IMG/VR virus record: IMGVR_UViG_3300023235_000015
Coordinates: 1 to 64,000 of that record
Reading direction: 5' to 3' (one strand)
DNA: 64,000 bases
Origin: a virus
Each line of letters begins with the position of its first letter. Position 1 is the stretch's first letter. Shown here piece by piece: positions 1,398 through 25,674 of this stretch. The translations under genes and the position numbers were made by a program. The notes beneath the pieces are model-generated. The model saw only the letters and a program-made list of their open reading frames with translations. It was not told where the DNA came from and searched no databases.

Positions 1398-2266
1398 TGA
1401 AAAATAGAATTATAGTTTATAATACAGAAATTGGTATTCCTTTAAACGACCAAATTACTAATAATAACAGAGCTTTTAATATTCCTATTAGTTCTACTGT
1501 AAGACTTAAGTTGCGCCAATGGGATTCTGATAGTATCTATATAGATTCTGCTGCTAGTATAATAAACGCTAGCTCGGGTCAAGTTAGATATATTTGGAAT
1601 GCTAATGACTTTATTATTCCGGGGCAATATATAGCTTGGTGGGAAATTAATTCATCTGGTATTATTTTTGAATCTGATGAATTTTCTATTATTATTGCAA
1701 CTCATGCGCCGGGTCTAGAAACTCGCACAGGTGCTATATATCACGCCGCAAAATCTTACCTGCCTATTACATGGGAACGTTTAGAAGAATCTGAACACTA
1801 TGGAGACAGACAGTTACAAAGCAAAGTAGAAATTGCGAAGCTTTCGCTGCTAGGTGTTGAAATTCTTGCAGAAGATGAAGCCGCTATGGATATTAGAGTA
1901 GCTAATTATATCGCTAAGATTGCTGTAATTTCTATAATACCTGCTGGTAAGGACTATTGGGCTTCTATGGTAAGCTCAAAGACTTCTGTTGGTACAGATG
2001 AGTCAGTTTCATATCCTGATAGAATTGAAATGCTGGATCAGCTACACGATCAACTAGTAGAAGAAATTGCTAAAGAACGTGACGATATTTCAGAACTTAT
2101 AGACTTACCAAACATTAGACGCGCTAACTCAGTACCTAGCGTATCTGATGGCACAGATGAAGGATACATTACGCCTAATCCACATACGCACTTTAGAGAT
2201 TATGGATTTCCAGTTAGAGGTAATACCTTACGCGGCAGAAACGCAGTTAGAGGGAGATTTTGGTAA
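1397..2266 (+). CDS. putative head-tail adaptor with N-terminal Ig-like domain
   Basis: N-terminus resembles ORF 718 (GQVRYIW...G.Y.AWW). C-terminal helical part has SVGTDESVSY. Lies upstream of the tail genes. Confidence 0.45.
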   Translation: MKNRIIVYNTEIGIPLNDQITNNNRAFNIPISSTVRLKLRQWDSDSIYIDSAASIINASSGQVRYIWNANDFIIPGQYIAWWEINSSGIIFESDEFSIIIATHAPGLETRTGAIYHAAKSYLPITWERLEESEHYGDRQLQSKVEIAKLSLLGVEILAEDEAAMDIRVANYIAKIAVISIIPAGKDYWASMVSSKTSVGTDESVSYPDRIEMLDQLHDQLVEEIAKERDDISELIDLPNIRRANSVPSVSDGTDEGYITPNPHTHFRDYGFPVRGNTLRGRNAVRGRFW

Positions 2267-20009: not shown

Positions 20010-21410
20010 TTGATTGAGATAAAAGTCACAAACTTCATTGAGGTTAGGGGGCTACCTGATAAATGGGTAGCTTCTCTTGCTAAGCTGGTGTCAGTAGAAA
20101 ACGAGAAGAAGGCTACAGCGATAAGTGAACATACTTATGGCGCTGAATACCTACCTGATCGTTTGACCTACCTAGAAGATCAGGGTGATTACATTACGCT
20201 ACCTCTAGGCTTTGAGAAAGAGCTTACAACGCGCCTGACTGAGACTAAGACACCTTACAAAAGACTTAGATGTACTAATTTTGTATCGTCAAAATCTTAT
20301 ACAGATCATGATACTATTGCCCTTAGAGATAGACAGCCAGAAGCTAAACAAGCTATGCTAGACAATAAGCATGGACTTATTATGGCTTCTCCCGGCTTTG
20401 GCAAAACTACAGTTGGCCTTCACGCTATTTTAGAAATAGGTCAAAGAACAATAATCTTAGTTGACAAAACTGAGCTAGCTAAACAGTGGATAGTTCGCGC
20501 CAAAGAACAATTTGGTATTGATATAGGTCTTATTGGAGATAACCAATGGAACGAGCAAGACATTACAGTAGCTACGCTTCAAACTCTAAGGTCTAGAGAA
20601 GAACAGCTAAACAATGAAAACTTTTGGGATAGATGGGGAGTTGTTGTATATGATGAATCGCATCATGCTGGTAGCTCAGATAGCTACTTTAATATTGTCA
20701 GTAAGTTTAAAGCTGATCGTAGGTACGGCCTTTCAGCTACTAAAGGAAAGAGCCAACAGAAATCAAAGGTGGCCGAACTAGTATTTGGCCCTGTTTTATT
20801 TGAAGATAAAACAAATCAACTTATTCCTACTGTACACAGAGTAAAAACTAATTTTCAATTTGAATATCGTGGTACAGATATTATCAATGGAAAGCGCGTA
20901 CAGAATAATTACCAAGCTATGATAAAAGAACTTATCGCTGACATAGATAGAAATAAATTAATTGCGTCTAAGATAAATAACGAACCTAACTGCGCTCATC
21001 TAGTTATATCAAGGCGGCTACAGCACCTAGAGGACGTTCAAAGCGCCGTAATAGAGGCTGGCTTCGATCCTAAGCGGTGTTTTATGCTTACAGGCAAGGA
21101 ATCCTCAGACCGACGCTTAGAGGTCGGGAGAATGGCTGACAGCGGCTCTATCGCTATATTTTCAACCGTAGCTGACGAGGGATTGGATATCCCGCGCCTA
21201 GACAGAATACACTTACCATTTCCATCTAAGAATCATGAGACAACTAGACAACAAGTAGGTAGAGGTTTAAGAAACCATCCTGATAAAGATGAAACTATTA
21301 TCTATGATTATGTTGATTTAGAAGTATCTGTAATGCGCAATCAATGGAGAAACCGTTTGAATAGATATTACCGTCCAAACAAATTTCCCATTGAATCTTA
21401 CGAATTTTAG
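20010..21410 (+). CDS. superfamily 2 DNA helicase (UvsW/ResIII-like)
   Basis: SPGFGKT, DESHH, GLSAT, EGLDIP and QQVGRGLR motifs. Confidence 0.9.
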   Translation: MIEIKVTNFIEVRGLPDKWVASLAKLVSVENEKKATAISEHTYGAEYLPDRLTYLEDQGDYITLPLGFEKELTTRLTETKTPYKRLRCTNFVSSKSYTDHDTIALRDRQPEAKQAMLDNKHGLIMASPGFGKTTVGLHAILEIGQRTIILVDKTELAKQWIVRAKEQFGIDIGLIGDNQWNEQDITVATLQTLRSREEQLNNENFWDRWGVVVYDESHHAGSSDSYFNIVSKFKADRRYGLSATKGKSQQKSKVAELVFGPVLFEDKTNQLIPTVHRVKTNFQFEYRGTDIINGKRVQNNYQAMIKELIADIDRNKLIASKINNEPNCAHLVISRRLQHLEDVQSAVIEAGFDPKRCFMLTGKESSDRRLEVGRMADSGSIAIFSTVADEGLDIPRLDRIHLPFPSKNHETTRQQVGRGLRNHPDKDETIIYDYVDLEVSVMRNQWRNRLNRYYRPNKFPIESYEF

Positions 21411-21779
21411 TATATCATATAGGCAGGATTCTGTTTTTCAGTCAATCATCTGTCTCAGTGTTGCTCTCGCTTTTCAGCGCACTTAGCTCCCTCAATAGGA
21501 AGTGCATACTGGCCGCATCTTTACATGGTGGCTGCTCTCTACCTTCATTCCTCAAAGTTTTCGGCATCTTAGTTTTCACGCCACTATGATTAGTCCTTAC
21601 AGGAAATATTTTGAGATTGCATACCCTGCTTAACGTCTTTTCTACTTATTGGTAAATAGCGGGTTTCCCCTCCCAAAGCGGATAAGTCATTTTATATTAG
21701 GTTAGCCCTAACAGGGTTGTCCTGACCTTCCTCGACAATGAATTTGAGCCATATGCCGCGACTGACCAGATATACTAAA
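21406..21779 (-). ncRNA. rnpB: RNase P RNA (bacterial-type ribozyme)
   Basis: CR I GAGGAAGGUCAGGAC (21733-21719) and CR V ACAGAAUCCUGCCUA (21434-21420) form P4 with the bulged U. P1 is 11 bp (UUUAGUAUAUC/GAUAUACUAAA). P2 is GUCAGUC/GAUUGAC. CR IV AGACAGAUG. P15 UCUC/GAGA with L15 GGUA. Confidence 0.9.
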
Positions 21780-21829
21780 TAGGAGTGGTGGGAATCGAAC
21801 CCAACGTATTATCTGTAACCATTACCCCT
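21780..21829 (-). ncRNA. minimal tRNA-like element (acceptor stem + T-arm, no anticodon arm)
   Basis: AGGGGU...ACUCCU A acceptor stem, UGGG-UUCGAUU-CCCA T-arm, AAUGGUU D-loop-like stretch. Confidence 0.5.
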
Positions 21830-21833
21830 TAAG

Positions 21834-21858
21834 TACTGCCGTCTGGATTTGAACCAGA
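21834..21858 (-). pseudogene. tRNA 3'-half remnant
   Basis: UCUGG-UUCAAAU-CCAGA-CGGCAGU-A directly after the HNH stop codon, with no good 5' half. Confidence 0.55.
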
Positions 21859-22248
21859 TTAAAGCCTTCCGTCTAGGTATTTATTTTTATACCAGTCGTT
21901 TTCTTCTATGTGAAATATGTGGTGACAATTCCTGCATAAGACTTCGCATTTATTTATTTCATCTAAAATGCGTTGTTGAGCTATTTGTTTATGCGGCGCG
22001 TCAAATAAGCCGAATGATTTTTCGCCTCTTATATGGTGAAAGTCCAAACACCGAATATCTTTTTGACCACACTCACCACAAGGGTTGGTTGATAAATATT
22101 CGCACAGAAAAATTTGAATTTCTCTAGTTCGTTTAGCTTTTTGAATCTTAACTCTAGCTTTTTGTTTCTTTTTGTTCTTCTGATACCAGTCTCTTTGGTA
22201 CTGGCGATTTCGTTTTCGTTGCTCTAAATTATTAGGATCGTATGACAT
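21859..22248 (-). CDS. HNH endonuclease
   Basis: CGECG...LDFHH...KCEVLCRNCH..FH. Confidence 0.9.
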   Translation of the reverse strand: MSYDPNNLEQRKRNRQYQRDWYQKNKKKQKARVKIQKAKRTREIQIFLCEYLSTNPCGECGQKDIRCLDFHHIRGEKSFGLFDAPHKQIAQQRILDEINKCEVLCRNCHHIFHIEENDWYKNKYLDGRL

Positions 22249-22281: not shown

Positions 22282-22357
22282 TAGGGAAGGCGGGGATTGA
22301 ACCCGCGTGAACCAATTACCCTTTCAACTGCATATAAGACAGAGGGGATACTTCCCA
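22282..22357 (-). tRNA. non-canonical tRNA-Ile(UAU)-like RNA lacking a D-arm
   Basis: Acceptor GGGAAG/CUUCCC, arm CUGU-CUUAUAU-GCAG extended by CCCU/AGGG, T-arm GCGGG-UUCAAUC-CCCGC. Confidence 0.6.
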
Positions 22358-22396
22358 ACGATTAAAGACTCTGTTATAGAGTCTTTGGTAATACAA

Positions 22397-22468
22397 TAGG
22401 ATATAAAGGTTATGCTCCTTTTTCTCTGCCTTATCAGAGCAGCGTCTTAACTAGTGGACAAATATCCA
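22397..22468 (-). tRNA. tRNA-Ile(GAU)
   Basis: Cloverleaf, anticodon loop CUGAUAA, atypical T-loop AGCAUAA, U1.U72. Confidence 0.8.
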
Positions 22469-22481
22469 ATGTGTAAATAAG

Positions 22482-22554
22482 TGGAGCTAATAGGATTCGA
22501 ACCTACATAAAATACGTTGCAAACGTATCGCCTTGCCAATCGAGCCATAACCCC
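22482..22554 (-). tRNA. tRNA-Ala(UGC)
   Basis: Cloverleaf, G3.U70, loop UUUGCAA. Confidence 0.92.
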
Positions 22555-22570
22555 TTGATAAATTTTTAAG

Positions 22571-22643
22571 TGGTCAATCAGGGATTCGAACCCCGGACCT
22601 TCCGCATGTAAAACGGCTGCGCTACCAACTGCGCCAATCGACC
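22571..22643 (-). tRNA. tRNA-Val(UAC)
   Basis: Cloverleaf, loop UUUACAU. Confidence 0.92.
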
Positions 22644-22679
22644 TTAAATTTTACTTCTTGACTTTCTTTTTCTTAACGT

Positions 22680-22740
22680 ATTCGAACCTATGCTTTCTTG
22701 GTATGTAACACCAAAGCTCTACCTACTGAGCTAATCGGGT
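22680..22740 (-). pseudogene. truncated tRNA-Val(UAC)
   Basis: Intact D- and anticodon arms and GGUUCGAAU, but the 3' T-stem strand and 3' acceptor strand are absent. Confidence 0.7.
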
Positions 22741-22753
22741 ATGTAATTTTTAA

Positions 22754-22826
22754 AGCGCCTATTTGGATTCGAACCAAAATCTTCGACCTTCGTAGAGTCG
22801 TGTGTTATCCATTACACTATAGACGC
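22754..22826 (-). tRNA. tRNA-Arg(ACG)
   Basis: Cloverleaf, loop CUACGAA. Confidence 0.92.
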
Positions 22827-22871
22827 ATATGTAGGTTACTTTGAAGTAGAGCGTATACCTACAATACTCTA

Positions 22872-22944
22872 CACCCCTACTAGGATTCGAACCTAGACCT
22901 AACGACTTAGAAGATCGTTGCATTATCCATTGTGCTATAGAGGT
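22872..22944 (-). tRNA. tRNA-Arg(UCU)
   Basis: Cloverleaf, loop CUUCUAA. Confidence 0.92.
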
Positions 22945-23016
22945 ATATTGCTAGTCACAAAAAGTAGCTATTTTTTTACTAGCTCTTACATGAGAGGATA
23001 AGTCAATGTAAGTAAG

Positions 23017-23087
23017 CAGGAAATAAAGGGATCGAACCTTTGTTTGCAGGTTTGGAATCTGCCGTGATGCCATTACACTAATCTCCT
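23017..23087 (-). tRNA. tRNA-Trp(CCA)
   Basis: Cloverleaf, loop UUCCAAA. Confidence 0.9.
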
Positions 23088-23102
23088 ATATTTAATTTTT
23101 AG

Positions 23103-23174
23103 CTGATCCAGAAGGATTCGAACCTTCATTTTTCTGCTTAACAGGCATACGCATTTCCATTATGCTACAGATCA
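23103..23174 (-). tRNA. tRNA-Asn(GUU)
   Basis: Cloverleaf, loop CUGUUAA. Confidence 0.88.
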
Positions 23175-23187
23175 ATGTTTACTACAG

Positions 23188-23269
23188 TATCGCATATAGG
23201 ATTCGAACCTATTCACCCGAAGGAACAGTTTTACAGACTGCCATGACTCTCCAACTTCATCGCTACGAT
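23188..23269 (-). tRNA. tRNA-Tyr(GUA)
   Basis: Cloverleaf with variable arm CC-UUCG-GG, loop CUGUAAA. Confidence 0.9.
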
Positions 23270-23282
23270 ATGTTTTACTTCA

Positions 23283-23354
23283 TGATTCCTGATGGATTCG
23301 CACCACCGACGCGCAACGCTTCAAGATGCCGCTCTACTCCTGAGCTAAGGAACC
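23283..23354 (-). tRNA. tRNA-Phe(GAA)
   Basis: Cloverleaf, loop UUGAAGC, T-loop UGCGAAU. Confidence 0.85.
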
Positions 23355-23367
23355 GTATTTAATTAAG

Positions 23368-23440
23368 GGCGAACAGAGGAATTCGAATCCTCATTTTCTT
23401 GGATCACAACCAAGGGCATTAACCGTTATGCTATGTTCGC
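23368..23440 (-). tRNA. tRNA-His(GUG)
   Basis: Cloverleaf, loop UUGUGAU, C73, genomic -1 base is U rather than G. Confidence 0.9.
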
Positions 23441-23442
23441 AG

Positions 23443-23518
23443 TACGCTCGGAAGGAATCGAACCTTCAAAATCTCTTGTGTCTAAGACAAGCGGCTTTGC
23501 CAGTTTGCCCACAAGCGC
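23443..23518 (-). tRNA. tRNA-Leu(UAG), short variable arm
   Basis: Cloverleaf, loop CUUAGAC. Confidence 0.9.
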
Positions 23519-23535
23519 ATGTTATTTTTACTTCA

Positions 23536-23606
23536 ATCACCGGCTAGGATTCGAACCCAGATAAGATGCCCCAAAAACATCTGTCTTACCGTTAGACGAC
23601 CAGTGA
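23536..23606 (-). tRNA. tRNA-Gln(UUG)
   Basis: Cloverleaf, loop UUUUGGG. Confidence 0.88.
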
Positions 23607-23609
23607 ACA

Positions 23610-23681
23610 TTGCTTAGAATGGATTCGAACCACTATCCCTAGATTCAGAGTCTAGTCACTTACCAATTAGTGTACCAAGCA
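23610..23681 (-). tRNA. tRNA-Gln(CUG)
   Basis: Cloverleaf, loop CUCUGAA. Confidence 0.9.
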
Positions 23682-23695
23682 TTATTTTTACTACA

Positions 23696-23767
23696 AGCCT
23701 AAATACGGAATCGAACCGTAATTATCTGATTACAAAACAGAGGTAATAGCCGTTATACTATTCAGGC
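23696..23767 (-). tRNA. tRNA-Thr(UGU)
   Basis: Cloverleaf, loop UUUGUAA. Confidence 0.9.
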
Positions 23768-23798
23768 GTATGTTGTTCATACATTATACCATACTTCA

Positions 23799-23882
23799 AG
23801 GAAGGGCAGAGATTCGAACTCTGAGGGCTGTTACGCCTAGCTGTTTTCAAAACAGTGTCCTTAACCAATTCGGATACCTTCC
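23799..23882 (-). tRNA. tRNA-Ser(UGA)
   Basis: Cloverleaf with long variable arm, loop UUUGAAA. Confidence 0.9.
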
Positions 23883-23897
23883 ATATTTAATTTTAAG

Positions 23898-23981
23898 CGG
23901 AATACTCAGGGTTCGAACCTGAAGGGCTTTTATGCCTTGTCTCTTTAGCAAAGAGAGTCCTGTCCAATTCGGTTGTATTCC
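23898..23981 (-). tRNA. tRNA-Ser(GCU)
   Basis: Cloverleaf with long variable arm, loop UUGCUAA. Confidence 0.9.
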
Positions 23982-24038
23982 AGATGCCATACCAGTGTAG
24001 CAGATTGTATGCTAGACGGTATGGAGTTTAGTACTTCA

Positions 24039-24111
24039 TGGCGGGTATCGGTGCCGCCCCGATTCCTAGAGCTTATGAGACTCCCGACTTATCTACCTTG
24101 TCCTACCCGCT
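24039..24111 (-). tRNA. tRNA-Met(CAU), possibly initiator-like
   Basis: Loop CUCAUAA, A1.C72 mismatch, atypical T-loop GGCGGCA. Confidence 0.8.
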
Positions 24112-24122
24112 TTGTATGTTAC

Positions 24123-24152
24123 ATTATATCAAATGATAAGGAGTAGCGTCAA
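24123..24152 (-). promoter_or_regulatory. sigma70-type promoter inside the tRNA array
   Basis: TTGACG-N18-TATAAT with TG extension. Confidence 0.7.
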
Positions 24153-24346
24153 CCTTTAATCTAAGTTCTTAATATTAGAGTAGCTTACACCAGACTTCTA
24201 CTGGTTCCTACATAAGTTATAAAAGTTATAAAGAAATATAAAAGGTATCGGGCGGGAGGTACATATTGCGCCATATGCTTCCTCACATTATTCTCAGTAG
24301 AGATTTTTATATTAACCTGCTAGCGGTAGGTCGTCCGATGTTATAG

Positions 24347-24429
24347 TACCCTTACTAGGATTCGAACCTAGACGCATATTTCAGCAGTTGGGCTTAAACC
24401 AACCGTGTCTACCATTTCACCATAAGGGC
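24347..24429 (-). tRNA. tRNA-Leu(UAA)
   Basis: Cloverleaf with variable arm, loop UUUAAGC. Confidence 0.9.
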
Positions 24430-24439
24430 TTATGTAAAA

Positions 24440-24513
24440 TGCTGCTACTAGGATTCGAACCTAGACTTTACCGCGTTTGAAACGGCTTCCTCTACCAATT
24501 GGGATATAACAGC
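24440..24513 (-). tRNA. tRNA-Leu(CAA), short variable arm
   Basis: Cloverleaf, loop UUCAAAC. Confidence 0.88.
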
Positions 24514-24522
24514 TTATGTAAA

Positions 24523-24555
24523 TCAGACTAACAGGATTTGAACCTATATAATCTT
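24523..24555 (-). pseudogene. tRNA(Pro-like) 3' fragment/minihelix
   Basis: AGAUUA-U-AUAGG-UUCAAAU-CCUGU-UAGUCUG-A. Confidence 0.55.
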
Positions 24556-24557
24556 AA

Positions 24558-24628
24558 TCGGAATACGTGGAGTCGAACCACGGCTTCTAAGTTCCAAACC
24601 TAGGGTGCTACCGTAACACCTTATTCCG
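24558..24628 (-). tRNA. tRNA-Pro(UGG)
   Basis: Cloverleaf, C1-G72, loop UUUGGAA. Confidence 0.9.
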
Positions 24629-25010
24629 TTATGAAACGTGAGCTTGTTCTAATTGCGTGACAATTGGCACAAACTAATTCACATTTACTAATTTCTTTTG
24701 ATATCTTTTCTATACCGAAACCTCTTGCGACCATGTTACCAACATTGAATTCTTTATCATTTTCAATATGATCCCAATGCATTACTATAGGTGGGTATGT
24801 ATTGTCGCAATCTGTACAAGGGCCGGACTTTATTTTGTTCGACCATTCTCTTAAGTCTTTACGCCTTGATTTATTTTGTGAAGCCCTTTTGCCTTTATCA
24901 GACTCGTAGCGTTCCTTATCATAAACTTTAACGCAAATCCTACACCAAGATTGTCCCTTATTAAATTCTGATTCTGTTTTAGTCTTAGTACATCTAGAGC
25001 AGTTCTTCAT
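24621..25010 (-). CDS. HNH endonuclease with N-terminal zinc finger
   Basis: CSRC..CRIC and CTDC...MHWDH...KCELVCANCH. The stop codon lies inside tRNA-Pro. Confidence 0.9.
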   Translation of the reverse strand: MKNCSRCTKTKTESEFNKGQSWCRICVKVYDKERYESDKGKRASQNKSRRKDLREWSNKIKSGPCTDCDNTYPPIVMHWDHIENDKEFNVGNMVARGFGIEKISKEISKCELVCANCHAIRTSSRFITE

Positions 25011-25016
25011 AAATGA

Positions 25017-25044
25017 AATATACCATATTTGGAAACTTTGTCAA
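25017..25044 (-). promoter_or_regulatory. sigma70-type promoter (leaderless HNH mRNA)
   Basis: TTGACA-N16-TATATT with TG extension, 6 nt before the ATG at 25010. Confidence 0.6.
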
Positions 25045-25058
25045 ATGTTCCAAATAAA

Positions 25059-25130
25059 TTGCCGGTATGGGTAACGATCCCATTTCTGAAAGTTAAGAGC
25101 TTCCTGCATCACCATTAATGCTTACCAGCT
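25059..25130 (-). tRNA. tRNA-Lys(CUU)
   Basis: Cloverleaf, loop CUCUUAA, T-loop AUCGUUA, A1.A72. Confidence 0.82.
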
Positions 25131-25138
25131 ATGTAAAG

Positions 25139-25210
25139 CGGTTCATGAGGGTTACGATCCCTCTTATTCTGATCGACAATCAGATGTAATAACCAGTATA
25201 CGAATGAACC
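25139..25210 (-). tRNA. tRNA-Asp(GUC)
   Basis: Cloverleaf, loop UUGUCGA, T-loop AUCGUAA. Confidence 0.88.
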
Positions 25211-25213
25211 AAA

Positions 25214-25288
25214 TGGTACGGAATAAGAGAATTGAACTCTTGTTTCAAGGATGAAAACCTCGCGTATTCTCCACTATACTAATCCCGC
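25214..25288 (-). tRNA. tRNA-Glu(UUC)
   Basis: Cloverleaf, loop UUUUCAU, encoded CCA. Confidence 0.9.
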
Positions 25289-25301
25289 GTAAATTTTAAA
25301 A

Positions 25302-25374
25302 AGCATCATTAGAGATTCGAACTCTATTCTCTTGGGTGGAAGCCAAGTATGTCAACCATTTCTACTTATGATGC
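25302..25374 (-). tRNA. tRNA-Gly(UCC)
   Basis: Cloverleaf, loop CUUCCAC, U73. Confidence 0.88.
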
Positions 25375-25377
25375 ATA

Positions 25378-25449
25378 TTGCCCCTGAGTGACTTGCACAC
25401 TCGCCCCAAGGCTTAAAAGGCCCGGATCTACTTGTTGAATTAAGGAGCT
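25378..25449 (-). tRNA. tRNA-Lys(UUU)
   Basis: Loop CUUUUAA, T-arm GAGUG-UGCAAGU-CACUC, weak D-stem, A1.A72. Confidence 0.75.
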
Positions 25450-25461
25450 TCGTTTACTAAG

Positions 25462-25539
25462 TGGAGAAGAAGGGTATCGAACCCTTGTCTTAGAGAGCGC
25501 ACTTCGGCAGTAACTCTAATCGAATCCTATCGCTTCCCC
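25462..25539 (-). ncRNA. ssrA: mini-tmRNA: tRNA-like domain only, no mRNA-like domain
   Basis: GGGGAAG/CUUCUCC-A acceptor with G3.U70, stemless D-loop CGAUAGGAUUCGA, P2 UUAGAG/CUCUAA closed by 18 nt, GAC linker, T-arm AAGGG-UUCGAUA-CCCUU. Confidence 0.75.
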
Positions 25540-25570
25540 GTGTTTTCCTACAGTTGATACCTGTTCGTAC

Positions 25571-25579
25571 ATTATAGCA
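25571..25579 (-). promoter_or_regulatory. extended -10 promoter upstream of the mini-tmRNA
   Basis: TGCTATAAT. Confidence 0.55.
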
Positions 25580-25602
25580 CAGATGCCCCGCGCCGTGTAG
25601 AG

Positions 25603-25674
25603 AGATTGAGAAAGGATTCGAACCTTCATAAGACAGGGTTGCAGCCTGCCGCGTCACCATTCCGCCACTCAATC
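25603..25674 (-). tRNA. tRNA-Cys(GCA)
   Basis: Cloverleaf, loop CUGCAAC, U73. Confidence 0.92.

What the first reader, a model, noticed from the sequence alone, without database searches (positions are those of the whole stretch)
22282..22357. Rearranged tRNA-Ile(UAU)-like RNA with its D-loop motif moved 3' of the anticodon arm
Seen: UGGGAAG UAU C CCCU CUGU CUUAUAU GCAG UUGAA AGGG UAAUUGGUUCAC GCGGG UUCAAUC CCCGC CUUCCCU A. There is no D-arm after the acceptor strand. The anticodon arm (UAU, reads AUA) is extended by a second helix CCCU/AGGG. A D-loop-like UAAUUGGUUCA sits where the variable loop should be. All stems are intact, which argues against simple decay. Known: bacteria normally read AUA with lysidine-modified tRNA-Ile2(CAU). 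Inference: an alternative L-shaped architecture, either a TilS-independent AUA decoder or a decoy for anticodon nucleases.
Basis: partly seen in the sequence, partly recalled or inferred. Interest (0 to 1): 0.7.

Follow-up and report, generated by a model that had tools for sequence, protein, structure and literature searches.

The report
Segment-swapped phage tRNA-Ile(UAU), conserved family
This 76-nt RNA gene belongs to a large, conserved and almost entirely unannotated class of phage tRNAs in which the D-stem strand and D-loop lie after the anticodon arm instead of before it; I found no published description of such a tRNA layout, and standard tRNA finders miss it.

Summary
Window 22282-22357 (minus strand) has an acceptor stem, a UAU anticodon hairpin and a T arm. 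It has no D arm after the acceptor strand, and a D-loop-like stretch lies 3' of the anticodon arm. One correction: the extra helix is CCC/GGG (3 bp), not CCCU/AGGG.

It is not decay. Unannotated homologs occur in about 85 cultured-phage records (Streptomyces, Rhodococcus, Microbacterium and crAss-like phages) and in well over 100 IMG/VR contigs. Nearly all lie in co-oriented tRNA arrays.

On 105 distinct copies all four helices covary: 97.9% paired against 66% in shuffles. RNAalifold predicts the same fold. A Levitt-type R15-Y48 pair also covaries.

The anticodon is always an Ile anticodon when U follows G18G19. A sister group with A at that position always has Arg anticodons. One Trp(CCA) copy with G73 was also found. 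This matches bacterial IleRS and ArgRS identity rules.

Best reading: a working tRNA-Ile(UAU) for AUA, which is 25% of Ile codons here. Its core is re-wired but probably still L-shaped. Charging and decoding are inferred, not shown. ARAGORN misses 104 of 106 copies, and the window copy's Rfam tRNA score is below threshold. No description was found in the literature searched. This scan had not found it before on other DNA.

The parts
22351..22357 (-). Acceptor stem, 5' strand (UGGGAAG; positions 1-7)
   Evidence: Pairs with 22283-22289. Family columns 1-7/71-77 are 97% paired, and all 7 pairs show double-sided changes.
22348..22350 (-). UAU linker (U8, A9, and a U facing U13 as a 13.22-like pair)
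   Evidence: Present in every BLAST-found and model-found relative. It was fixed by the scan patterns, so its invariance in those sets is not informative.
22345..22347 (-). CCC: equivalent of the 3' strand of the D stem (23-25), here 5' of the anticodon arm
   Evidence: Pairs with GGG at 22319-22321. 105 of 105 copies are paired. Types: CG 87, AU 17, UA 1; CG 66, UA 35, AU 2, GC 1, UG 1; CG 105.
22343..22344 (-). C26-like base, and U27 of a conserved U.U on top of the anticodon stem
   Evidence: Alignment A3, columns 14-15.
22328..22342 (-). Anticodon arm: CUGU / CUUAUAU / GCAG; anticodon UAU at 22334-22336
   Evidence: Stem columns 16-19/27-30 are 99% paired, and all 4 pairs show double-sided changes. 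The loop has U33 and A37.
22322..22327 (-). UUGAAA linker from the anticodon stem to the D-stem strand (takes the place of 44-47)
   Evidence: The conserved motif U-W-G-R-A-A is seen in BLAST-found relatives.
22319..22321 (-). GGG: equivalent of the 5' strand of the D stem (10-12), here 3' of the anticodon arm
   Evidence: Pairs with 22345-22347.
22307..22318 (-). Transposed D-loop: U13 A14 A15 U U G18 G19 U20 U C A21, then C at the place of 48
   Evidence: D-loop consensus is kept. The R15/Y48-like columns 42/53 covary (AU 77, GC 21, GU 2, other 5). The window copy is one of the 5 exceptions (A.C). U20 goes with Ile anticodons and A20 with Arg.
22290..22306 (-). T arm: GCGGG / UUCAAUC / CCCGC
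   Evidence: Columns 54-58/66-70 are 97% paired, and 4 of 5 pairs show double-sided changes. The T-loop is UUCRANY.
22283..22289 (-). Acceptor stem, 3' strand (CUUCCCU)
   Evidence: U1.U72 is unique to this copy within the family. The neighbouring canonical tRNA-Ile(GAU) has the same mismatch.
22282..22282 (-). Discriminator A73; no CCA is encoded
   Evidence: Column 78 (position 76 of the window copy) is invariant A in alignment A3. The sequence after it is UGA.
22396..22469 (-). Context: canonical tRNA-Ile(GAU), the last ARAGORN-called gene of the roughly 25-gene array, 38 nt upstream of the element
21859..22248 (-). Context: HNH endonuclease gene 33 nt downstream of the element
   Evidence: PHROG 3106 and 2255, E 8e-20 and 6e-19.
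21831..21858 (-). Context: orphan T arm plus trailer, probably a remnant of a canonical tRNA-Ile(UAU)
   Evidence: The 18 nt at 21841-21858 and TACTT at 21831-21835 are identical to the T arm and trailer of the ARAGORN-called tRNA-Ile(UAU) at the syntenic site of relative L004.

Best explanation
The element is a working phage tRNA-Ile(UAU) gene with a re-wired core. It belongs to a large family of phage tRNAs, probably of single origin, in which two internal segments have changed places. The segment 'D-stem 5' strand plus D-loop' (canonical 10-21) now follows the segment 'D-stem 3' strand plus anticodon arm' (22-43).

Secondary structure (shown by covariation): a three-way junction. The acceptor stem encloses (i) a 3-bp D-type helix that itself encloses the anticodon arm, and (ii) the T arm.

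Three-dimensional fold (inferred):
- The same helices can stack as in a normal tRNA: acceptor on T, and D helix on anticodon stem.
- The bases of the tertiary core are all kept: U8, A14, R15-Y48, G18 G19, the T-loop.
- So the molecule probably folds into an ordinary L shape. Only three strand connections differ: 7 to 22, 43 to 10, and 21 to 48.

Function (inferred):
- It is transcribed with the array.
- It is cut out by RNase P and 3' processing, and receives CCA.
- It is charged by the host IleRS.
- It reads AUA, a frequent codon in this phage, without needing lysidine.
For: Family and fold:
- Homologs at 77-87% identity occur in 47 plus 38 cultured-phage records of very different hosts. All but one are unannotated.
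- On a structure-blind MAFFT alignment of 105 copies, 97.9% of cells pair, against 66.3% in shuffles and at most 48.6% with partners slid. The covariation score is 0.818 against 0.208. 17 of 19 pairs have double-sided changes.
- RNAalifold predicts the identical structure.
- The Levitt-type pair covaries.

Identity:
- With a free anticodon in the search pattern, copies with U after G18G19 carry only UAU, GAU or CAU.
- Copies with A at that position carry only UCU, ACG, UCG or CCU: 99 distinct copies.
- A structure-only finder gives 136 Ile-type copies, all U20; 74 Arg-type, all A20; and 1 Trp(CCA) with G20 and G73.
- A20 is the main bacterial ArgRS determinant. U20 and A73 are among the Ile determinants (PMC9976931, Table 1).
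- A73 is invariant in the 105-copy alignment.

Context:
- 112 of 121 IMG/VR copies have other tRNAs in the locus, and 99.5% of those are co-oriented.
- Where a canonical tRNA-Ile lies in the same locus, it usually has the other anticodon: 16 against 4, Fisher p = 0.016.

This window:
- The copy scores 87 bits with the family model. The family range is 80-101 bits, and canonical tRNAs score at most 23.
- AUA is 25.5% of Ile codons, 18.2 per 1000 codons.
- The array otherwise has only Ile(GAU).
- The relative L004 has an ordinary tRNA-Ile(UAU) at this site.

Against: - There are no expression, processing, charging or decoding data.
- The L shape is argued from conserved bases and covariation, not modelled.
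- Streptomyces phage Yaboi has canonical tRNA-Ile(UAU) and tRNA-Ile(GAU) as well as the swapped Ile(GAU). The swapped gene is therefore not always needed to fill a gap.
- The window copy has three small departures: U1.U72, a one-base shorter D-loop tail (8 other copies are also 76 nt), and A.C at the Levitt-type position.
- The U20/A20 rule was found on sets selected for that base. The two groups may each be one clade, so part of the correlation could be shared descent. Only 9 copies were found without such selection; all 9 obey the rule.
- An unmodified U34 would risk reading AUG.
Confidence: 0.7

Rival explanations
1. It is a tRNA-shaped decoy or sponge. The RNA keeps the tRNA-Ile anticodon loop and overall shape in order to bind, saturate or mislead a host tRNA-targeting defence nuclease, or a phage nuclease that depletes host tRNA. 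It is not used in translation.
For: - The swapped form sometimes coexists with canonical tRNAs of the same anticodon (Yaboi).
- Those phages also carry tRNA-repair genes: RNA ligase and polynucleotide kinase.
- Only a few identities (Ile, Arg, one Trp) have this form. That would fit particular nuclease targets.
Against: - A decoy for an anticodon nuclease has no evident need for a covarying 7-bp acceptor stem, A73 (G73 in the Trp copy), or the aaRS determinant at position 20 tracking the anticodon.
- Anticodons of swapped and canonical tRNA-Ile in one locus are mostly complementary, as expected of decoders.
- In this window it is the only AUA-cognate tRNA found.
Confidence: 0.12
2. It is a tRNA-like RNA with another job. 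Examples: a processing signal that releases the downstream HNH mRNA from the array transcript; a regulator binding IleRS or a T-box; or cargo that rides with homing endonuclease genes as a cleavage-resistant replacement of the tRNA gene they destroy.
For: - In the window the element sits 33 nt upstream of an HNH gene.
- An orphan T arm of the displaced canonical tRNA-Ile(UAU) lies just after that gene.
- Other acceptor-plus-T-arm fragments lie nearby.
Against: - An HNH homolog lies within 1 kb in only 17 of 121 Ile-type and 8 of 118 Arg-type copies.
- A processing signal needs no anticodon loop restricted to Ile or Arg anticodons, and no D-loop consensus.
- The replacement-cargo idea still needs the RNA to work as a tRNA.
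Confidence: 0.1
3. It is a decayed or scrambled pseudo-tRNA, left by recombination around the HNH insertion, with no function.
For: - It is below the thresholds of ARAGORN and the Rfam tRNA model.
- The single-sequence fold is not exceptional, z = -1.43.
- The array does contain real fragments: a T-armless Val-like piece and orphan T arms.
Against: - The same layout recurs in hundreds of unrelated phage genomes, with compensatory changes in every helix.
- The window copy keeps every invariant family position and scores 87 bits with the family model.
Confidence: 0.03

Closest known systems
Canonical tRNA-Ile(UAU) of bacteria and phages (for example the ARAGORN-called gene at the syntenic site of relative L004, Yaboi gene 113, and the HGT-cluster tRNA-Ile(TAT) of Mycobacterium mucogenicum, PMC6582537)
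   Same: UAU anticodon with U33 and A37; A73; 7-bp acceptor stem; canonical T arm; D-loop bases A14, R15, G18 G19; location in phage tRNA arrays; presumed reading of AUA without lysidine.
   Different: The order of internal segments differs. Here the D-stem 5' strand and D-loop come after the anticodon arm. The D-type helix therefore closes around the anticodon arm, and the cloverleaf becomes a three-way junction.
D-arm-lacking mitochondrial tRNAs (mammalian mt-tRNA-Ser(AGY), nematode mt-tRNAs; PMC7609411), and the engineered 'mini HisT' accepted by E. coli (PMC11551756)
   Same: There is no hairpin D arm between the acceptor strand and the anticodon arm, only a short connector of a few nucleotides.
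   Different: Those tRNAs have lost the D-stem and D-loop and are shorter and more flexible. This family keeps both the stem (with covariation) and the loop consensus, keeps the normal length (76-77 nt), and keeps the bases for the elbow contact.
Circularly permuted and split tRNA genes of Cyanidioschyzon merolae and some archaea (recalled from general knowledge, not tested here)
   Same: Pieces of a tRNA occur in a non-standard order in the gene.
   Different: There the 3' half precedes the 5' half, and processing through a circular or trans-spliced intermediate restores a canonical mature tRNA. Here both acceptor strands are at the ends, and the swap is internal. No simple cut and join could restore the canonical order, so the mature RNA itself must be non-canonical.
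Class II tRNAs (Leu, Ser, Tyr) with a long variable arm
   Same: A stretch of about 20 nt lies between the anticodon stem and the T stem. The Rfam tRNA model treats the stretch as a variable-region insert. One record annotates a family member as tRNA-Leu.
   Different: The stretch forms no variable hairpin of its own. Part of it pairs back across the anticodon arm and the rest is a D-loop. The anticodons are Ile or Arg, not Leu, Ser or Tyr. The normal D arm is absent.
tRNA-like domain of tmRNA
   Same: Acceptor stem, T arm and a D-loop-like strand without its own hairpin. A weak partial Rfam tmRNA match covers the T arm.
   Different: This RNA has no mRNA-like domain, no pseudoknots and no G3.U70. 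It has a true 7-nt anticodon loop.

Membership tests
tRNA (Rfam RF00005; canonical cloverleaf) | 7-bp acceptor stem with an unpaired discriminator | tested here: met
   6 Watson-Crick pairs plus U1.U72, and A73. The helix covaries in the family.
tRNA (Rfam RF00005; canonical cloverleaf) | T arm with a 5-bp stem and UUCRANY loop | tested here: met
   GCGGG-UUCAAUC-CCCGC.
tRNA (Rfam RF00005; canonical cloverleaf) | Anticodon arm with a 7-nt loop, U33 and purine 37 | tested here: met
   Loop CUUAUAU. The stem has 4 Watson-Crick or G.U pairs plus U.U.
tRNA (Rfam RF00005; canonical cloverleaf) | D arm (hairpin) between position 9 and the anticodon arm | tested here: not met
   Only UAU plus CCCCU lie there. 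The Rfam alignment deletes 15 model positions.
tRNA (Rfam RF00005; canonical cloverleaf) | Score at or above the curated threshold, or a call by a standard finder | tested here: not met
   24.6 bits against a gathering score of 29. ARAGORN makes no call at default or -ps settings and misses 104 of 106 family members.
tRNA (functional definition) | Aminoacylation and use on the ribosome | not testable with these tools
   Indirect evidence only: the position-20/anticodon/discriminator combinations follow the Ile, Arg and Trp identity rules (PMC9976931).
Segment-swapped phage tRNA family defined here (model R1) | Order: acceptor 5' strand, UAU, 3-nt strand, anticodon arm, purine-rich linker, complementary 3-nt strand, D-loop consensus, T arm, acceptor 3' strand | tested here: met
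   87 bits, full length 1-77. The family range is 80-101 bits and canonical tRNAs score at most 23. All invariant columns are kept.
Segment-swapped phage tRNA family defined here (model R1) | Ile-type signature: NAU anticodon together with U after G18G19, and A73 | tested here: met
   UAU, GGU and A73. This holds in 136 of 136 Ile-type copies.
Pseudo-tRNA / gene fragment | Lineage-specific, with broken stems or no conservation of the aberrant layout | tested here: not met
   The layout is conserved with compensatory changes across hundreds of phages.
D-arm-lacking (mitochondrial-type) tRNA | Loss of the D-stem and D-loop sequence, with shortened length | tested here: not met
   Both are present but transposed, and the length is 76 nt. 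ARAGORN in mitochondrial mode does not call it.

The most novel reading that the evidence does not exclude
Phages carry a distinct structural class of functional tRNAs (Ile, Arg, rarely Trp), probably of single origin, whose core strands are connected in a different order from every other known tRNA while folding into the same L shape. On this reading the re-wiring is selected because it makes these tRNAs, which read AUA and the Arg codons, poor substrates for host tRNA-targeting defence nucleases or for the phage's own host-tRNA-depleting enzymes, while aaRS, EF-Tu and the ribosome still accept them.
Probability: 0.25. Interest if true: 0.95.

Novelty: new variant of a known kind. Interest (0 to 1): 0.86.

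Why it matters
The cloverleaf is one of the most constant structures in biology. A 2024 paper states that all known bacterial tRNAs adopt it (PMC11551756). The reviews and reports of non-canonical tRNAs that I checked list longer or shorter arms and missing arms, and their text holds no mention of permuted or swapped segments (PMC7609411, PMC5389517).

If these RNAs are charged and used, several things follow:
- The L shape can be built from a different strand topology.
- IleRS and ArgRS read position 20 in a loop that enters the core from the other side.
- This gives a natural test bed for tRNA folding, identity and orthogonal-pair design.

There is also a practical consequence. Hundreds of phage tRNA genes, including genes in well-studied Streptomyces phages and crAss-like phages, are missing or misnamed in annotations. 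Examples are 'tRNA-Leu' in EGole and 'tRNA-Val(aac)' in Yaboi. Phage tRNA complements for AUA and for the Arg codons are therefore under-counted.

Tried and rejected
Searches that found nothing:
- Megablast of the array against cultured phages.
- Helicase-based locus search with a single protein.
- An exact 19-mer of the odd part in IMG/VR.
- 'Relatives' cannot be drawn for a virus record.
The contigs of the four closest helicase relatives (77-82% identity) could therefore not be looked up that way. One relative of 80% identity came in as L004 through the metagenome scan.

Ideas considered and rejected:
- Decayed pseudo-tRNA. This was my starting favourite at 50%. It was rejected once blastn in 'distant' mode found conserved homologs.
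- A variable-arm hairpin UGAA/UUCA. It is only 3 bp in other members and is not part of the RNAalifold consensus.
- General linkage to HNH genes.
- 'It always fills a missing isoacceptor'. Yaboi has canonical copies of both Ile anticodons.
- Presence in cultured bacterial isolates. All pattern hits in isolates (Neisseria, Anaerococcus, Streptococcus, Geofilum) have no stems and random 'anticodons'. The 40 true genome hits are all in MAG contigs, mostly in dense tRNA arrays.
- Swapped tRNAs for other amino acids. Scans with anticodon middle base G or U gave 27 hits, none structurally valid. Scans with A or C at the second and third anticodon positions gave 11 hits, of which one is valid, Trp(CCA). 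Anticodons NAG and GCU, and families with other linkers, were not covered.

Literature: eight full-text searches and six papers read found no description. Subscription-only papers are not covered.

Full report
**1. What is in the window**

The window is part of a 102-kb IMG/VR virus record. It is about 39% G+C. It carries tail, helicase, ribonucleotide reductase and glycosyltransferase genes. It has no close cultured relative: the helicase is under 30% identical to any INPHARED record.

On the minus strand, 22396-25674 holds 22 ARAGORN-called tRNA genes. Rfam adds several more. The finding lies 38 nt downstream of the last called gene, tRNA-Ile(GAU), and 33 nt upstream of an HNH endonuclease gene at 21859-22248.

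ARAGORN does not call it, even in relaxed or mitochondrial mode. The Rfam tRNA model gives 24.6 bits, below the gathering score of 29. Its alignment keeps the acceptor stem, anticodon arm and T arm, deletes the D arm, and inserts 17 nt in the variable region.

Taken alone, the element could have been a scrambled pseudogene. That was my first guess.

**2. Relatives**

The nearest relative I could fetch is metagenome contig L004 (helicase 80% identical). It has a syntenic array. At the corresponding site it has an ARAGORN-called tRNA-Ile(UAU) with segments in the normal order. That gene abuts an RNase P-like RNA.

In the window, the T arm and trailer of such a gene survive as an orphan at 21831-21858, just after the HNH stop codon. 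I infer that in the window's lineage a block containing the odd element and the HNH gene replaced most of an ordinary tRNA-Ile(UAU).

The turning point was blastn in 'distant' mode. The 76 nt alone match 47 cultured-phage records at 77-87% identity. A marine-type variant matches 38 more. The carriers are:
- about 80 Streptomyces phage records (Karimacvirus, Samistivirus and others);
- Rhodococcus phage Peregrin;
- Microbacterium phage Magritte;
- crAss-like phages (Kehishuvirus 'tikkala', cr130_1) and bajarodcaudo virus 1.

The matches lie in or near tRNA arrays. They carry no annotation, with one exception: in EGole the exact 77 nt are labelled 'tRNA-Leu' although the anticodon is GAU.

I then scanned IMG/VR with a degenerate pattern that left the anticodon, all stems and the 3-nt helix free. 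It gave 104 distinct 76-77-nt copies.

The same pattern in 185,579 species genomes gave 40 true copies. All are on MAG contigs and most sit in dense tRNA arrays. There were about 30 chance matches, including every hit in a cultured isolate. The chance matches have no stems and random 'anticodons'. They serve as a built-in negative control.

**3. The structure is real**

I aligned 105 distinct copies with MAFFT, which is blind to structure, and counted pairs for this proposed structure:
- acceptor: columns 1-7 with 71-77;
- 3-bp helix: columns 11-13 with 37-39;
- anticodon stem: columns 16-19 with 27-30;
- T stem: columns 54-58 with 66-70.

Results:
- 97.9% of cells pair. Column shuffles give 66.3%. 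Sliding the 3' partners by 1-3 columns gives at most 48.6%.
- The covariation score is 0.818 against 0.208 (0 of 500 shuffles reach it).
- 17 of 19 pairs have double-sided changes.

The helix that makes the topology unusual is paired in all 105 copies. Its types are CG 87, AU 17, UA 1; then CG 66, UA 35, AU 2, GC 1, UG 1; then CG 105. Four of its six positions were free in the search pattern, as was the C that pairs with the pattern-fixed G.

RNAalifold, run independently, returns exactly this structure.

**4. The transposed stretch behaves as a D-loop**

After the GGG strand every copy reads U-A-R-N-N(-N)-G-G-N...A. That is the D-loop consensus A14, R15, G18 G19, A21. The linker after the acceptor strand begins U-A, as positions 8 and 9 do.

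The R at the '15' position covaries with the pyrimidine just before the T stem, the '48' position: AU 77, GC 21, GU 2, other 5. Double-sided changes number 21 against 5.8 expected, and 0 of 500 shuffles reach this. This is the pattern of the Levitt pair.

My reading, which is inference:
- The CCC/GGG helix stacks on the anticodon stem as a D stem does.
- U8-A14, R15-Y48 and G18G19 with the T-loop form as usual.
- Only the connections differ: 7 to 22, 43 to 10 through the UWGRAA linker, and 21 to 48.

In a normal tRNA each of those pairs of positions lies close together. That last point rests on my general knowledge of tRNA crystal structures and was not modelled here.

**5. Identity**

The first pattern fixed U after G18G19 and left the anticodon free. 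All 104 distinct copies have UAU (80), GAU (22) or CAU (2).

The covariance model R1 then picked up weaker, unannotated or misannotated relatives with Arg anticodons and A after G18G19:
- Yaboi L136 31005-31081, anticodon CCU;
- Yaboi L136 26687-26764, anticodon UCU, annotated 'tRNA-Val(aac)';
- Magritte L015 2405-2481, anticodon UCU;
- L072, anticodon UCU;
- L039, anticodon ACG.

A second IMG/VR scan fixed A at that position and again left the anticodon free. It gave 99 distinct, structurally valid copies with UCU 57, ACG 29, UCG 8 and CCU 5, all Arg.

Two scans with a free position 20 probed other anticodons:
- Middle base G or U: 27 hits, none valid.
- A or C at the second and third positions: 11 hits, one valid. 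It is a tRNA-Trp(CCA) with G73.

A structure-only finder run over all fetched DNA lists 211 distinct swapped tRNAs: 136 Ile-type, all U20; 74 Arg-type, all A20; and 1 Trp with G20. This includes 9 copies that no pattern had selected.

In bacteria A20 is the main ArgRS determinant. U20 (D20) and A73 are among the Ile determinants (PMC9976931, Table 1). G73 for bacterial tRNA-Trp is from my general knowledge.

The Ile and Arg groups share the same linkers and loop sequences, so they look like one family that switched identity. This means part of the correlation may be shared descent. Even so, it is what charged tRNAs would show, and a decoy has no evident need for it.

**6. Context and use**

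- Of 121 IMG/VR copies, 112 have other tRNAs in the fetched locus. 71 lie within 200 nt of one. 99.5% of neighbouring tRNAs are on the same strand.
- Where a canonical tRNA-Ile is in the same locus, its anticodon usually differs from the swapped one (16 against 4; Fisher p = 0.016).
- Yaboi is a counter-example, with canonical UAU and GAU genes as well.
- In the window, AUA makes up 25.5% of Ile codons, about as common as AUG.
- The array is a set rich in U34 tRNAs for A-ending codons. The swapped gene is its only UAU tRNA.
- The window copy scores 87 bits with R1, inside the family range.
- It is the only family member with U1.U72. Its neighbour tRNA-Ile(GAU) has the same feature, in both the window and L004. 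I note this without explaining it.

**7. Rivals**

- Decay is excluded at the family level.
- A decoy or sponge role cannot be excluded. It fits the acceptor-stem covariation, discriminator, position-20 rule and complementary anticodons less well.
- Linkage to HNH genes is local, not general: 14% of Ile-type and 7% of Arg-type copies have a homolog within 1 kb.

**8. Novelty**

- The Rfam 15 scans of the window gave no family match for the element other than the sub-threshold tRNA hit and weak partial tmRNA-type matches.
- ARAGORN misses 104 of 106 copies.
- Eight full-text searches and six papers read turned up no description.
- A 2024 paper states that all known bacterial tRNAs are canonical cloverleaves (PMC11551756).
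- The library excludes most subscription journals, so an existing report cannot be ruled out.

**9. Limits**

- The patterns fixed several bases. Conservation at those positions in the scanned sets is uninformative. Only the BLAST-found and model-found copies speak to them.
- No tool for RNA 3D modelling, expression or charging was available.

Noticed in passing
window 21404-21777 (-); L004 1431-1742 (-): A divergent RNase P class A-like RNA closes the tRNA array. Rfam RF00010 aligns full length: 37.3 bits, E 3.6e-10 in the window, and 44 bits, E 1.4e-10 in the relative. Both are far below the gathering score of 100. A phage-encoded RNase P RNA would be notable in its own right.
   Followed up: partly
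window 21831-21858 (-) and 21780-21830 (-): There are two tRNA fragments between the HNH gene and the RNase P-like RNA. The first is an orphan T arm identical over 18 nt to the T arm of L004's tRNA-Ile(UAU). The second is a roughly 50-nt acceptor-plus-T-arm piece whose 5' part (AAGGGGUAAUGGUUAC) resembles the GGG-plus-D-loop segment of the swapped tRNA.
   Followed up: partly
window 22684-22740 (-): A 57-nt tRNA-Val(UAC)-like sequence has good D and anticodon arms but only 4 nt in place of the T arm. Rfam tRNA gives 20.2 bits, and ARAGORN calls it only in mitochondrial mode. It is probably a gene fragment.
   Followed up: no
window 25459-25539 (-): An 81-nt RNA matches the Rfam tmRNA model end to end at 44.8 bits (gathering score 47). 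It has only the tRNA-like domain.
   Followed up: no
window 25302-25374, 25378-25449 and about 24039-24111 (-): ARAGORN at default settings misses further tRNA genes. Gly(UCC) scores 48.4 bits with Rfam. Lys(UUU) scores 30.1 bits. A CAU tRNA (Met or Ile2) appears only with relaxed ARAGORN.
   Followed up: no
window 22364-22386 (-); L004 about 1835-1860 (-): A 9-bp hairpin (AAAGACUCU-AUAAC-AGAGUCUUU) lies between tRNA-Ile(GAU) and the swapped tRNA. It is kept in L004 with three changed pairs that preserve pairing. It may be a processing or attenuation signal.
   Followed up: no
window 22396-22469 (-): The canonical tRNA-Ile(GAU) is itself odd. It has a U1.U72 mismatch and a T-loop without the UUC consensus (GGAGCAUAACC). 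Rfam gives only 37.5 bits. L004 has the same features.
   Followed up: no
L136 26687-26764 and 31005-31081 (Streptomyces phage Yaboi, NC_048730.1 86686-86763 and 91004-91080); L135 395-471 (EGole): These are misannotated or missing genes in GenBank records. 'tRNA-Val(aac)' in Yaboi folds as a swapped tRNA-Arg(UCU). An unannotated swapped tRNA-Arg(CCU) lies 240 nt upstream of tRNA-Ile(gat). EGole's 'tRNA-Leu' is a swapped tRNA-Ile(GAU).
   Followed up: partly
L366, around 133-190 (IMGVR_UViG_3300035696_000034): This is a single swapped tRNA-Trp(CCA). All four helices are perfect (7, 3, 4 and 5 bp). It has G73, and G after G18G19.
   Followed up: partly
L174 2617-2693 and 3550-3626; L045, L074, L160, L185, L188: A few swapped tRNAs have a CAU anticodon. 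If they are tRNA-Ile2 they would need lysidine from TilS; otherwise they are Met. L174 (an Erysipelotrichaceae MAG contig) carries a GAU and a CAU copy 900 nt apart.
   Followed up: no
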